From Octopus vulgaris (lineage: Eukaryota), in assembly GCA_951406725.2 (NCBI GenBank), contig OX597819.1, positions 110,484,001 to 110,548,000 of the forward strand: a stretch of 64,000 nt of DNA, read 5' to 3'. Numbering within the stretch: the stretch's first letter is position 1; each line of letters opens with the position of its first letter. The notes beneath the pieces were generated by a model. The model was not told the origin of the DNA. It searched no databases and worked only from the letters and a program-made list of their open reading frames with translations. The translations under genes were made by a program, and so were the position numbers. This document shows, piece by piece, positions 7,491-58,074 of the stretch.

Positions 7491-7779
7491 ATTCTTTTAC
7501 TCTTTTACTTGCTTCAGTCATTTGACTGCGGCCATGCTGGAGCATCGCCTTTAGTCGAGCAAATCGACCCCAGGACTTATTCTTTGTAAGCCTAGTACAT
7601 ATTCTATCGGTCGCTTTTGTCGAACAGCTAAGTTACGAGGACGTAAACACACCAGCATTGGTTGTCAAGCGATGGTGGGTGGGACAAACACATGTTGGCG
7701 GTGGGGAACAAACACAGAAACACAAACATATACACACACACATACGTATATATATATATATATTATATATATATATATA

Positions 7780-8455
7780 CAATATAATAAATAAAACATA
7801 TGCATACATACGTACATATATGTACATACCTACATCTATATGTATATATACATGCATATATGGGTACAGGACACCACAAATAAACGTAGAACACAACGAG
7901 AAACGAAAACATAAAACCAAACAAGGAAACGGACTTTTTTTAACAAGGAAAAAACAGAGTACAAGAAACCAACACAAGGAACATTCCCCTTCTTCAGCTG
8001 CCCCTGTTTCGACTCCATGCGTGTTTCGAAGGTAAGGGCAGAACACGATCCCGCCGAAGCGGTCCTTCCTGCAAAATGAATTAAATAAAATTCTTTTGCA
8101 GAGGGGTAAAAAAAAGTGACAAGAACAGGACGTAAAAACAATACAAATGAAGAAAAAAACAGACAGACAGGGAGGAAAGGTCAAGTAAAGAGTTAAGAGT
8201 GCGCGTCATAATTATTGAAATAAAACTTACTTGGTAGAAGGAGAAAAACGACGCGTGCGTTCGATCATATAATAACAATATAATAAATAAAACATATGCA
8301 TACGTACATACATATATGTACATACCTACATCTATATGTATATATACATGCATATATGGGTACAGAACACCACAAATAAACGTAGAACACAACGAGAAAC
8401 GAAAACATAAAACCAAACCAGGAAACGGACTTTTTTTAACAACGAAAAAACAGAG
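7780..8455 (-). mobile_element. Non-coding partial tandem repeat (496-bp unit, ~1.36 copies), PLE pseudo-LTR or retrozyme-like
   Basis: 180-bp direct repeats at 7780-7959 and 8276-8455; 3' end abuts (TA)n; contains a hammerhead-like motif. Confidence 0.75.
7988..8047 (-). ncRNA. Hammerhead-like ribozyme, non-circularly permuted strand order
   Basis: Minus strand: CGUG-UU-CUGCCC uua CCU-UC-GAAA-CACG [16 nt] GGGCAG-CUGAAGA-AGG. Stems I (6 bp), II and III all pair. Confidence 0.65.
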
Positions 8456-43384: not shown

Positions 43385-43590
43385 CAGTGACCGCGTGTGT
43401 ACCGATGACGATTTTTTTCCTCTGTCTTCCCTTCTCTGGATCTTTCCTTCTCCTATGTTTCCGACGAAGAGCTCCGCTCGAAACGTTAAACCCTCCTTCT
43501 TTCCTTCTTTCCTGAGCGTCCAAATAATACTATATTTGTTCCACGTCCTCGCGTTGTTGTGTTTTTTTGTGCTTTCTTGTTTGGATTAAC
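43385..43590 (+). mobile_element. PLE-type terminal repeat fragment with minimal hammerhead
   Basis: Flanked by (TA)n; 3' end shared with 23942-24033 and 41563-41628. Confidence 0.8.
43457..43491 (+). ncRNA. Minimal type I hammerhead ribozyme (U4C variant, palindromic stem III)
   Basis: GUUU-CCGACGAA-GAGC-ucc-GCUC-GAAA-CG-UU-AAAC. Confidence 0.7.
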
Positions 43591-51070: not shown

Positions 51071-52940
51071 GATTGATTGATTGATTCTAGTTTCAGCTCA
51101 TGAGCTGTGGCCATGCTGGGGCACCGCCATTTGGTGTTGCTACTTGGTTTTACTTCACGGAAGCTTTTTAGCAACTGCCATTTGGTGCATGAGAGAGTTC
51201 GATGCAGCTGCCCTCATCTGCACCTCCTGCCGTGAAGTTGGTTCATCTGGGACACCTGACAGGAAGAGATCCAGTTCCATTTTAAAGACATCTGCATCCA
51301 CCCCATGCAGGTCTCTCAGGTTCTTCGGGAGGATATTGAAGAGCTGTGGGCCACGGAAGCTCAGGCTATCACAGTATCTTGTCCTACATCTTGATGGCAA
51401 ATTTGGAGTCCTAGGCACCACGCAGTGGCGCCCAGTTCTGGCATTTGTGTAACTCTCGATGCCAAAGTTTGGGACACGTCCCTCCAGGATCTTCCAGATG
51501 TATATTATGGCATATCTTTCCCGCCTACGCTCCAAGGAATATAGTTTTAATCTCTTGAGTCTTTCCCAATAGCTTACATTCTGCATAGAGGCTATCTTCT
51601 TCGTGTAGCTACGCTGGATCGCCTCGAGCTCTGTGATCAACTTGACACTGGATGGTGACCATAACTGAGAGCAATAGTCAAAGTGGCTTAGGACAAGTGT
51701 CCTCCAGAGGACTATCATGGTTTCTTGTTCTCTTGTTCTAAAGGTTCTAAGAATCCATCCAGCCAGCCGTCTACATTTTATTGCCAGTTTAGCAACATGT
51801 ACATGAAAGGTCGCGTCATCACTCATGTGAATACCCAGGTCACGCACTGATTGTGCCTCTGGGATTGCAATCCCTCCGGGTCCAGTGTATTCATTGGGTG
51901 TTGCATTCAGTTTTGCATGCTGATAGTATAAAGCTTGAAAATTTTCAGCATTGAACTGCATGCTATTCTTTTCAGCCCACTTGTATATTTCGTCCAGCTC
52001 ACATTGCAGGTGCTTAGTGTCTTCAGGGTTCTGTTTTGCCTGTGAAACTTTTGTATCATCTGCATAACTTGTGATCGTGGCTCTCTGCGTGGCTGAGGGC
52101 ATGTCTGAGAGGGCCATTATGAACAGTAGTGGTCCCAAAACAGTGCCCTGCGGAACACCGCTCACTATTTGTGTGTTAATGGAAGTGGCCCCATTGGCTG
52201 CTACCACCTGACTTCTATTCTTCAGAAAGTCATGAAGCCATTCTCCCAATTTTCCAACTATGCCAAGATCACGCAGTTTGTGACATATCATTCCATGATC
52301 GACTTTATCAAAGGCCTTTGCAAAGTCGAGATATATGACTTCCACATTTGAGTGGTTGAGCAGTTGTTTCAGCACCCAGTCATAGTGTTGTAGGAGCTGA
52401 GTTAAACAGCTTTTTCCTGGTCGGAAACCATGTTGGGTGTCAGGCAGCAAGTCATTTTCTTCAAGGAAGGTGATTAGTTTCCTTCTGACTATTCGTTCCA
52501 TGACCTTGCTGGTGTGTGAGGTGAGAGAGATAGGTCTGTAGTTCTTGGCCTCTGCTCTGCTACCACCTTTATGAATAGGGCATATTTTACCTTCCTTCAG
52601 TTTTTTTGGAAGTTTGCCAGCTGCAAGGAAGCTCTGAAAGAGGATCTGCAGTGGTCTTGCTGGGACTCTCTTACATACTTTTAGGAGGATTGCCGGGAAT
52701 CCATCGGGGCCAATAGCTGATTCTGTTTTCATTTCATCTATGGCCTTTATTACATCGTCTTCCTTTATATCGATGTAATTTATCGTCGCCGCCTCTGATT
52801 TTATATCTGCAGTGGTAAAGAAGTCAGTTGGATTGGTGATTTGGAAATGCCCGAGGGGTGGAGTGAAAACACTCTTGAATTGCTCATTCAGTATTTCACT
52901 TACCCTCATTGGTTTTCCTGTGAGTGTGACATCTTTTCAA
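51070..52940 (-). mobile_element. 5'-truncated CR1-type LINE
   Basis: Open RT frame, short 3' UTR and (TCAA)n tail; APE endonuclease and ORF1 absent. Confidence 0.95.
51155..52909 (-). CDS. Non-LTR reverse transcriptase (CR1 group ORF2, C-terminal 584 aa)
   Basis: Motifs GPDG, NYRPISLTS, QHGFR, YLDFAKAFDKV, SGVPQGTVLGPLLF, YADD and RDLG; no stops. Confidence 0.93.
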   Translation of the reverse strand: MRVSEILNEQFKSVFTPPLGHFQITNPTDFFTTADIKSEAATINYIDIKEDDVIKAIDEMKTESAIGPDGFPAILLKVCKRVPARPLQILFQSFLAAGKLPKKLKEGKICPIHKGGSRAEAKNYRPISLTSHTSKVMERIVRRKLITFLEENDLLPDTQHGFRPGKSCLTQLLQHYDWVLKQLLNHSNVEVIYLDFAKAFDKVDHGMICHKLRDLGIVGKLGEWLHDFLKNRSQVVAANGATSINTQIVSGVPQGTVLGPLLFIMALSDMPSATQRATITSYADDTKVSQAKQNPEDTKHLQCELDEIYKWAEKNSMQFNAENFQALYYQHAKLNATPNEYTGPGGIAIPEAQSVRDLGIHMSDDATFHVHVAKLAIKCRRLAGWILRTFRTREQETMIVLWRTLVLSHFDYCSQLWSPSSVKLITELEAIQRSYTKKIASMQNVSYWERLKRLKLYSLERRRERYAIIYIWKILEGRVPNFGIESYTNARTGRHCVVPRTPNLPSRCRTRYCDSLSFRGPQLFNILPKNLRDLHGVDADVFKMELDLFLSGVPDEPTSRQEVQMRAAASNSLMHQMAVAKKLP

Positions 52941-56196: not shown

Positions 56197-57044
56197 TATA
56201 CACACGCATATATATATAAGAACACATGTTTATATATATATACACCTATATCTACACACGTACATATATATATATGTATGTCTGTATGTATATATATATA
56301 TATATAAGAGTTATACGTTCTTGTCCATGTTGTATTTTTCTACATACCTTAACATATATTCCAGGCGCCCCGTACCCCCCTTAACATTTATGTGAGCACA
56401 TATTCTTAATAATTGGTACGACTCTCTGTTTGTCTCTCTCTCTCTCTCATTTTTACTTGATCTGTCCCCCTCTCTCTCTTTTCTCTCTACTCATCCTCTT
56501 TTTCTCTTCTCTTTCCTCTGATTCTTTGGTCTAGTCTTCCACTACCCTCCTATTTCTTTGTCTCGCTCTGCACTCACAGGTCATTCTTCGACACCCATCC
56601 CTTCTCCTCTCTGATTCCTTCTTTCTCTCTCTTCTCTCTCTTTGTTGCGTTTGTCCCTCCTCTCTCTCTCTCTTCCTTTGCTTCTCTTTCTTTTCTTTTC
56701 CCTCTTCTCTGTCACGTGACTGTTGGCCGAAATCTGCCTTTCAGCCTCTGACCCTCGTTCTGTTAACATCGCTGTTTTCGTCCGCCACTATAAAGGCTTT
56801 TTCCATTGCGCCAGAGAAAAAATTTGTTTGCTTGTTATCAGTCGTAAGACACCGTTGTTTTCACCGTTAATGCTTCTGTATTTCATGTTTCTGTATTCCA
56901 TTATTGTTTTTTGTTTTTTTATATCTGTCCCTTTTGCTGTCCTGGTGTTCGTATGCATTCGATCCTTCTTCCAGGAAATCTACGCTTCCAGCTTAGTTTT
57001 TCTAATGCTCGTTGCTTGTTTTTCTTGGAGGGCTGGCCGTGATC

Positions 57045-57107
57045 TAGTAATCTCAAGATTAATCAGCCGAAATTACTACGATGATCCGGTTCTTGACTGA
57101 AGACTGA
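57045..57107 (+). ncRNA. Hammerhead-like ribozyme, non-circularly permuted strand order (copy 1)
   Basis: UAGUAA-UC-UCAAGA uuaa UCAG-CC-GAAA-UUACUA [12 nt] UCUUGA-CUGAAGA-CUGA; stems I and III are perfect 6 bp. Confidence 0.7.
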
Positions 57108-57887
57108 GGGTTTCGAATGTCCTGTCCGTGTTTATTGTGTCGTCTTCTAAGAGTTATACGTTCTTGTCCATGTTGTATTTTTCTACATACCTTAACATAT
57201 ATTCCAGGCGCCCCGTACCCCCCTTAACATTTATGTGAGCACATATTCTTAATAATTGGTACGACTCTCTGTTTGTCTCTCTCTCTCTCTCATTTTTACT
57301 TGATCTGTCCCCCTCTCTCTCTTTTCTCTCTACTCATCCTCTTTTTCTCTTCTCTTTCCTCTGATTCTTTGGTCTAGTCTTCCACTACCCTCCTATTTCT
57401 TTGTCTCGCTCTGCACTCACAGGTCATTCTTCGACACCCATCCCTTCTCCTCTCTGATTCCTTCTTTCTCTCTCTTCTCTCTCTTTGTTGCGTTTGTCCC
57501 TCCTCTCTCTCTCTCTTCCTTTGCTTCTCTTTCTTTTCTTTTCCCTCTTCTCTGTCACGTGACTGTTGGCCGAAATCTGCCTTTCAGCCTCTGACCCTCG
57601 TTCTGTTAACATCGCTGTTTTCGTCCGCCACTATAAAGGCTTTTTCCATTGCGCCAGAGAAAAAATTTGTTTGCTTGTTATCAGTCGTAAGACACCGTTG
57701 TTTTCACCGTTAATGCTTCTGTATTTCATGTTTCTGTATTCCATTATTGTTTTTTGTTTTTTTATATCTGTCCCTTTTGCTGTCCTGGTGTTCGTATGCA
57801 TTCGATCCTTCTTCCAGGAAATCTACGCTTCCAGCTTAGTTTTTCTAATGCTCGTTGCTTGTTTTTCTTGGAGGGCTGGCCGTGATC

Positions 57888-57950
57888 TAGTAATCTCAAG
57901 ATTAATCAGCCGAAATTACTACGATGATCCGGTTCTTGACTGAAGACTGA
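57888..57950 (+). ncRNA. Hammerhead-like ribozyme, non-circularly permuted strand order (copy 2)
   Basis: Identical to 57045-57107. Confidence 0.7.
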
Positions 57951-58034
57951 GGGTTTCGAATGTCCTGTCCGTGTTTATTGTGTCGTCTTCTAAGAGTTAT
58001 ACGTTCTTGTCCATGTTGTATTTTTCTACATACC

Positions 58035-58074
<40 letters not shown>

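What the first reader, a model, noticed from the sequence alone, without database searches (positions are those of the whole stretch)
7988..8062. Second, sequence-dissimilar scrambled hammerhead provides natural covariation
Seen on the minus strand: the same A-B-C order with different stems. Stem III is CGUG/CACG, stem I is CUGCCC/GGGCAG and stem II is AGG/CCU. It has the same CUGAAGA and GAAA cores, the same two extra pyrimidines before GAAA, and similar linkers (3 nt and 16 nt versus 4 nt and 12 nt). A CCGC-UUCG-GCGG tetraloop hairpin lies just upstream. Inference: two dissimilar repeats preserving one unusual architecture argue against chance and suggest a conserved ribozyme class.
Basis: partly seen in the sequence, partly recalled or inferred. 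Interest (0 to 1): 0.85.

Follow-up and report, generated by a model that had tools for sequence, protein, structure and literature searches.

The report
Knotted hammerhead ribozymes in mobile repeats
This stretch holds every part of a hammerhead self-cutting RNA in a scrambled, knotted order that I found reported only from environmental RNA samples; it sits in a short non-coding repeat copied thousands of times in this animal genome, where it likely cuts the repeat's RNA as a step in copying it to new sites (cutting untested).

Summary
The motif is real. Its block order (cleavage site, GAAA, CUGANGA) is the type-SGC non-circular hammerhead permutation of Eckert et al. 2023, so the class is not new. 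That paper found none in genomes of known organisms.

Here it lies in a ~760-nt non-coding repeat with thousands of copies, and at least three repeat lineages of this 2.8-Gb genome carry the same wiring. Stems I and III covary across subfamilies, and N7 is the core position that varies freely.

The 'two extra pyrimidines' are better read as the core-proximal pairs of stem II (G10.1-C11.1 after a 1-5-nt insert). The perfect UUCG hairpin is in 1 of 29 copies; that segment instead pairs with the linker as a fourth helix.

Copies end in TA microsatellites at a fixed internal phase, can exceed one unit, and often break off just 3' of the predicted cut. This fits a retrozyme cycle (cut, circularise, reverse-transcribe), likely driven by Penelope-like elements. 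Cleavage, expression and the partner element are not shown.

The parts
8034..8047 (-). Block S: 5' strand of stem III (8047-8044), U16.1 (8043), H17 = U (8042), stem I strand (8041-8034). Predicted cut between 8042 and 8041
   Evidence: covariation
8032..8033 (-). 2-nt linker joining stem I to stem II (3-4 nt in other lineages)
   Evidence: published type-SGC linker typically 3 nt
8020..8031 (-). Block G: stem II strand 8031-8028 (C11.1 = 8028), GAAA 8027-8024, 3' strand of stem III 8023-8020
8006..8019 (-). Linker from stem III to stem I; 8013-8006 is the 3' strand of the fourth helix and abuts stem I
8053..8060 (-). 5' strand of the fourth helix (7 of 8 pairs in this copy); overlaps the UUCG hairpin 8062-8051, which is perfect only in this copy
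   Evidence: 26 of 29 copies keep 7-8 of 8 pairs; 1 of 29 keeps the 4-bp hairpin
7986..8005 (-). Block C: stem I strand 8005-7998, core CUGAAGA 7997-7991 (N7 = 7993), inserted A 7990, stem II strand 7989-7986 (G10.1 = 7989)
7976..7991 (-). Competing local hairpin that would take A9 and the stem II strand (possible off-switch; inferred)
   Evidence: 6 bp, -3.7 kcal/mol; similar hairpin visible in subfamilies 2a-2d
7769..8454 (-). The repeat copy: monomer positions 184-471 (8454-8156) joined to 742-1130 (8162-7769) of the 762-nt unit, i.e. a circularly permuted copy with ~270 nt missing, ending in (TA)n
57036..57112 (+).
57879..57955 (+). Type-SGC motif of lineage 1, copy 2
56305..58045 (+). Tandem array of about two 843-nt units of lineage 1, flanked by (TA)n

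Best explanation
The segment has the sequence and pairing of a type-SGC (double-pseudoknot) hammerhead inside a high-copy non-coding repeat, and it likely cuts the repeat's RNA between 8042 and 8041 as part of a retrozyme-type copying cycle. Shown: block order, core, stems I and III with compensatory changes, repeat structure, copy ends. Inferred: transcripts fold so that stems I, II and III form the usual core, with a 2-4-nt linker holding stems I and II together and a fourth helix (5' flank with the III-to-I linker) bracing stem I; cutting releases unit-length RNA; units are ligated to circles; a Penelope-like reverse transcriptase primes at a nicked TA microsatellite on a fixed UA-rich patch of the RNA and either goes round (tandems, permuted copies) or runs off the cut 5' end (copies that stop at the ribozyme).
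For: Order and core match type SGC. Repeat: 2494, 2743, 1135, 1334 and 713 first-look candidates for five queries (overlapping, not copy numbers); 3314 exact matches to one lineage-2 pattern vs 0 for the reversed pattern. G-then-C pattern 47,242 vs 4,312 control. Of 40 matches picked without sight of their upstream DNA, 24 have an S block scoring 8 or more of 10 pairs; shuffled flanks 4.2%; metagenome matches to a similar pattern 2 of 48. Nine lineage-2 copies: 95% of cells paired, 5 pairs with double changes, 0 of 500 shuffles reach the score. In contigs of 4 runs the only listed core variant is N7. Lineage 1: 16 of 17 insertions end at phase +150 and one at +147, mostly into TA-rich sequence, with scattered 5' ends and up to 4 units. 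12 of 40 copies chosen by G and C blocks alone lose homology within 10 nt upstream of the G block, 2 of the other 28 in the next ~60 nt; second set alone 6 of 20 and 0 of 14. Intact RT + GIY-YIG elements exist in the genome and one lineage-2 copy is fused to such an element (L077).
Against: No cleavage or expression data. Stem II in this copy is weak (G-C, G-U, G-U, G-C) and shows no double change in lineage 2; a local hairpin competes for it. H17 is U. Subfamily 1b (25 loci) keeps stems I, III and IV but has lost the stem II match and still spread. Break-off points are not confined to the cut: among the first 100 rows chosen by the C block alone, about 14 end between the cut and GAAA and about 14-17 end inside GAAA or stem III (by eye), so stalling in the knot could contribute. 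No autonomous element with this motif was found in 12 ten-kb and 20 three-kb GIY-YIG loci. Related copies share ancestry, so the shuffle counts are not probabilities.
Confidence: 0.8

Rival explanations
1. The blocks are real but work between two RNA molecules or two units (dimer, as Penelope minimal hammerheads do), not as a cis double pseudoknot.
For: Metazoan Penelope hammerheads are proposed to act as dimers (PMC4209133); lineage 1 forms tandems; stem II is weak.
Against: Stem III is 4-6 bp, not the 1-2 bp of dimer-type motifs; linker lengths fit the cis-cleaving type-SGC RNAs; the fourth helix ties the 5' flank to the linker of the same unit.
Confidence: 0.08
2. A fossil or non-catalytic structure: the knot is kept as a protein-binding or reverse-transcription signal and no longer cuts, at least in this lineage.
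For: Subfamily 1b spread without a stem II match; competing hairpin; break-offs spread over 20 nt; 8 of 9 predicted Xenopus retrozymes did not cleave in vitro (10.64898/2026.07.22.740005).
Against: Catalytic core kept across three lineages while N7 and H17 vary as in active hammerheads (N7 U12/A9/G4/C1, H17 C13/A7/U6 in 26 representatives); break-offs almost cease upstream of the predicted cut.
Confidence: 0.1
3. Chance assembly of short motifs, multiplied by repeat amplification.
For: Copies of a repeat are not independent; nested folding energy of the segment is unremarkable (z = -0.39).
Against: Three lineages with different stems; no alignment between the ribozyme regions of the lineage-1 and lineage-2 monomers; shuffles give 0 in 100 windows and 3 hits in 20 x 400 kb.
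Confidence: 0.02

Closest known systems
Type-SGC hammerhead ribozymes (HRIMA-1 and SGC variant; Eckert et al. 2023, PMC10085705)
   Same: Block order S-G-C, intact core, short linker between stems I and II, insert after A9 followed by a stem II pair next to GAAA, a helix formed by the III-to-I linker next to stem I.
   Different: Theirs come from metatranscriptomes and none from genomes of known organisms. Their extra helix pairs the linker with the 3' flank; here it pairs with the 5' flank. The insert here is A, U, UU, ACU or 5 nt (mostly U in the HRIMA-1 rows seen). Their search patterns need CUGAUGAG or CUGAUGAUG, which this copy does not match.
Animal non-LTR retrozymes (Cervera and de la Pena 2020, PMC7229834; Li et al. 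2026, 10.64898/2026.07.22.740005)
   Same: Non-coding units, one ribozyme per unit, dispersed monomers and tandems, unit size within the reported 51-972 bp, co-occurring Penelope-like elements.
   Different: Described with type I hammerheads only. Circular RNA is shown there and not here.
Minimal hammerheads of Penelope-like elements (Cervera and de la Pena 2014, PMC4209133)
   Same: Extra base between A9 and G10.1 and a conserved G10.1-C11.1 pair; such motifs are present in this genome and window.
   Different: Type I order with a palindromic, vestigial stem III, in the pseudo-LTRs of coding elements.

Membership tests
Type-SGC hammerhead | 5'-to-3' order S, G, C with three mutually crossing stems | tested here: met
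Type-SGC hammerhead | Core CUGANGA, GAAA, U16.1-A15.1, H17 not G | tested here: met
   (core changes in 30 copies: C3 in 1, C11.1 in 2, N7 18 U/12 A)
Type-SGC hammerhead | Covariation in stems I and III | tested here: met
   (4 of 8 and 1 of 4 pairs with double changes in 9 copies)
Type-SGC hammerhead | Stem II, with covariation | tested here: inconclusive
   No double change among 9 lineage-2 copies; one-sided and double changes in subfamily 4 and G-C-rich stems in lineages 1 and 3; lost in subfamily 1b
Type-SGC hammerhead | Helix between the linker and the 3' flank (the paper's 'I' interaction; needed in SGC-3) | tested here: inconclusive
   By eye no such pairing; a 5'-flank helix is seen instead (mean longest helix 6.9 vs 5.2 +/- 0.2 in 500 shuffles, 26 representatives). 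The 3' flank was not scored by script.
Type-SGC hammerhead | Self-cleavage 3' of H17 | not testable with these tools
   Only indirect: copy break-offs
Non-LTR retrozyme | Non-coding tandem or dispersed unit with one hammerhead | tested here: met
   762- and 843-nt units, longest Met-ORF 111 and 71 codons; tandems
Non-LTR retrozyme | Type I hammerhead | tested here: not met
   Type SGC; so it works like a retrozyme but does not meet the published definition
Non-LTR retrozyme | Linear and circular unit-length RNA in cells | not testable with these tools
   Only contigs available; fixed internal 3' phase with multi-unit copies is indirect support
Non-LTR retrozyme | Homology to the pseudo-LTR of a Penelope-like element | tested here: inconclusive
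   No match to the terminal repeat of the intact 781-aa element; one fused copy (L077); other Penelope families not surveyed

The most novel reading that the evidence does not exclude
Animal genomes hold a hidden class of retrozymes built on knotted hammerheads with their own fourth helix, tens of thousands of copies in this genome alone, missed because searches assume types I-III; and lineage 1 arose from the genome's own canonical Penelope hammerhead by local duplication and loss of blocks, which would give the first traceable route to a non-circular RNA permutation.
Probability: 0.3. Interest if true: 0.9.

Novelty: new variant of a known kind. Interest (0 to 1): 0.76.

Why it matters
The published type-SGC hammerheads have no known host and no known origin; the paper says tandem duplication alone would not explain them. 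This genome offers a host, a likely job (processing mobile-repeat RNA), many covarying subfamilies for structure work, a different peripheral helix, and a canonical look-alike in the same genome for testing origins. It also suggests that 'no hammerhead detected' statements for some retroelements (for example Naiads) may reflect descriptors limited to circular permutations; I did not test Naiads.

Tried and rejected
Rfam scan: no hammerhead among the 150 rows shown of 613; the rest were not visible. Nested folding: z = -0.39, uninformative for a pseudoknot. Sequencing runs: no RNA holder listed; 20 of 24 rows hold part of the stretch, and the 4 laid runs are contigs, so nothing is shown on expression or RNA ends. 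Search for an autonomous partner: no SGC motif in the terminal repeats of the intact element; flanks of the L077-type element were not obtained, so that link is open. Metagenome scan: 2 of 48 reach 8 of 10, none 9, i.e. chance level. Viral contigs were not scanned. Strict descriptor on 400 kb of evenly spaced DNA: 1 weak hit, while BLAST found 4 diverged copies, so the descriptor misses decayed copies. MAFFT misaligned the four subfamily-4 rows, so pair counts use 9 other lineage-2 copies. Lunse et al. 2017 was not held.

Full report
OBSERVATION. The minus strand shows, in order: stem III strand, UU, stem I strand, linker, stem II strand, GAAA, stem III strand, linker, stem I strand, CUGAAGA, stem II strand. 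All three stems cross. A descriptor for all six block orders found only this order (87 hits in the window and 60 loci chosen for holding the two motifs) and nothing in 100 local shuffles of the window. The window is rich in microsatellites and the genome has 2.8 Gb in 227 contigs.

KNOWN CLASS. Eckert et al. 2023 (PMC10085705; seen: abstract, all Results, Methods, Discussion part 1 of 2, supplement parts 1, 8 and 18 of 42 and a term search) call this order type SGC. They showed cleavage (0.007-0.19 per min) and state that, apart from one GCS candidate, none of their RNAs came from genomes of known organisms. Their patterns require CUGAUGAG or CUGAUGAUG, which this copy lacks. Searches listed no report of type SGC in an animal genome, and the supplement has no 'Octopus', 'Mollusca', 'Metazoa' or 'Eukaryota'. 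Subscription journals and preprint supplements were not searchable.

THE REPEAT. The motif belongs to a dispersed repeat (2494 first-look candidates, 40 scored) with a 762-nt non-coding unit (L021). The window copy is a permuted, internally deleted unit ending in (TA)n. In 30 subfamily-2a loci most 3' ends lie 230-340 nt past the predicted cut in TA runs, 5' ends are scattered, and some copies exceed one unit. In lineage 1, 16 of 17 insertions end at phase +150 and one at +147, with up to four units. A fixed internal start with read-through across the cut site needs a circular or multimeric template (inference). Inverted partial copies occur (L027, L203). These traits match Penelope-like insertions (10.1101/2021.04.23.441226, passages) and animal retrozymes (PMC7229834, passages; 10.64898/2026.07.22.740005, parts 1-3 of 5).

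HOW MANY, HOW DIVERSE. A G-then-C pattern has 47,242 matches against 4,312 for the reversed control. About 29 of the first 100 rows (by eye) are a canonical minimal hammerhead with a chance upstream GAAA. From the remaining rows I took 40, skipping near-duplicates of families already sampled and without sight of upstream DNA: 24 of 40 have an S block with 8 or more of 10 pairs, against 4.2% for shuffled flanks and 2 of 48 metagenome matches. Four diverged copies in 400 kb of evenly spaced DNA and the pattern count both point to the order of 30,000 copies, many decayed; this is a rough extrapolation. Three lineages are distinguishable: lineage 1 (843-nt unit), lineage 2 (this finding, subfamilies 2a-2h and the more distant 4) and lineage 3 (about 275 nt). 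Contigs from runs under four organism labels hold lineage 2.

COVARIATION. Among 9 lineage-2 copies, 95.1% of cells pair, five pairs change on both sides (four in stem I, one in stem III), and 0 of 500 shuffles reach the covariation score; slid controls pair 46-61%. The structure was derived from these sequences and they are related, so this is support, not a P value. In 26 representatives of all lineages, N7 and H17 vary and position 11.1 is C in all 26; those were selected for stems I and III and for Y before GAAA, so their pairing fractions are circular. In the 4 laid runs the only core position listed at 8% or more is 7993 = N7, and 8001 and 8038 both vary as a C-G to U-A change would need (5 rows not shown).

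STEM II CORRECTED. After A9, lineage 2 has A, UU (L228, L230) or ACU (21 of 69 rows), then GGGG, while CCUUC is unchanged. Only pairing of the G run with CUUC survives. Subfamily 4 keeps G10.1-C11.1 after an A (4 of 4 Watson-Crick pairs in L258). Lineage 3 has U then G. Lineage 1 has a variable 5-nt insert then GGYU/AGCC. An insert after A9 with G10.1-C11.1 is the Penelope-type pattern (PMC4209133, passages), and weak stems II are common (PMC3088659, passages). A one-base slip along the G run cannot be excluded. Against: subfamily 1b has lost the match, and in this copy a local hairpin competes.

FOURTH HELIX. The 5' flank pairs with the end of the III-to-I linker, next to stem I: GUUUCGGC/GUCGAAAC type in 2a, GUUUCA/UGAAAC in 2b-c, GUUUUA/UAAAAC in 2d, CCAGAUU/AAUCUGG in 1b, CCACGUC/GACGUGG in lineage 3. 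The mean longest helix is 6.9 against 5.2 (maximum 6.2 in 500 shuffles); the script's best helix abutted stem I (within 2 nt) in 18 of 26. In the published HRIMA-1 alignment the linker pairs with the 3' flank.

A FOOTPRINT OF CUTTING? Of 40 copies chosen by G and C blocks alone, 12 lose homology within 10 nt upstream of CCUUC (the cut is 9 nt upstream) and 2 of the other 28 in the next 60 nt or so. The second set, fetched after the idea arose, gave 6 of 20 and 0 of 14. L266 and L261 join (TA)n at the cut, and L203 looks like snap-back on stem I from a cDNA ending there. With selection on the C block only (2162 matches vs 0; first 100 rows by eye), about 14 end between the cut and GAAA, 14-17 in GAAA or stem III, 4-7 in the linker, 9 have internal deletions, and only 1-2 of about 56 end in the 25 nt upstream of the cut. 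The sharp upstream limit fits a cleaved 5' end with trimming. Stalling in the knot or TA microhomology could add to it.

PARTNER. Young intact elements with RT and C-terminal GIY-YIG exist (781 aa), but their terminal repeat has no such motif. One lineage-2 copy is fused, inverted, to the 5' end of a truncated element of this kind (L077). Mobilisation by Penelope-like enzymes is therefore likely but not shown.

ORIGIN (speculative). A canonical minimal hammerhead repeat in these loci has AGGCUG after the core and UAUCAGCCGAAA (5 copies); lineage 1 shares CAGCCGAAA and, in L235, AGGCUG. This may be descent by block rearrangement or coincidence; untested.

VERDICT. A real type-SGC hammerhead fold in a retrozyme-like mobile repeat: known ribozyme type, new host and context, different peripheral helix. 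Probability that the lineage is or recently was catalytically active: about 0.8. Probability that this copy cleaves well in vitro: about 0.5. Interest 0.76.

Noticed in passing
window 43453-43495 (+): Canonical Penelope-type minimal hammerhead with CCGACGA core (U4 to C), inserted A, GAGC/GCUC stem II and palindromic ACGU; same repeat in L077.
   Followed up: no
window 51158-52936 (-): 593-codon open frame with a reverse transcriptase domain (Pfam RVT_1, E 1e-29), probably a LINE fragment.
   Followed up: partly
L178-L202 (subfamily 1b): Abundant subfamily that keeps stems I, III, IV and the core but has no stem II match; unexplained.
   Followed up: partly
L133-L152 (lineage 3): About 275-nt unit (tandem in L141) with the most HRIMA-1-like core (U insert); L136 has upstream a zinc-finger-like and 'KWPKAN'-like reading that recalls non-LTR elements (label from memory).
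   Followed up: partly
L072 / L082 and L194: Type I hammerheads with long stem I and a 4-bp stem III; one lies antisense just beyond the 3' repeat of a Penelope-like element.
   Followed up: no
L084: 744-5990: Young Penelope-like element: 504-nt terminal repeats 100% identical, 479-codon upstream frame without Pfam match, 781-aa RT + GIY-YIG frame; no CUGANGA in its terminal repeat on either strand.
   Followed up: partly
G000 C1, rows: Several internal deletions join repeated words inside the ribozyme (CGCG to CGCG, GAAA to GAAA), and several copies carry fold-back inversions that start in it.
   Followed up: no
L004, L006, L009: The same lineage-2 insertion sits in an intron-like position next to coding-like exons in three related loci on C17 (segmental duplicates).
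   Followed up: no
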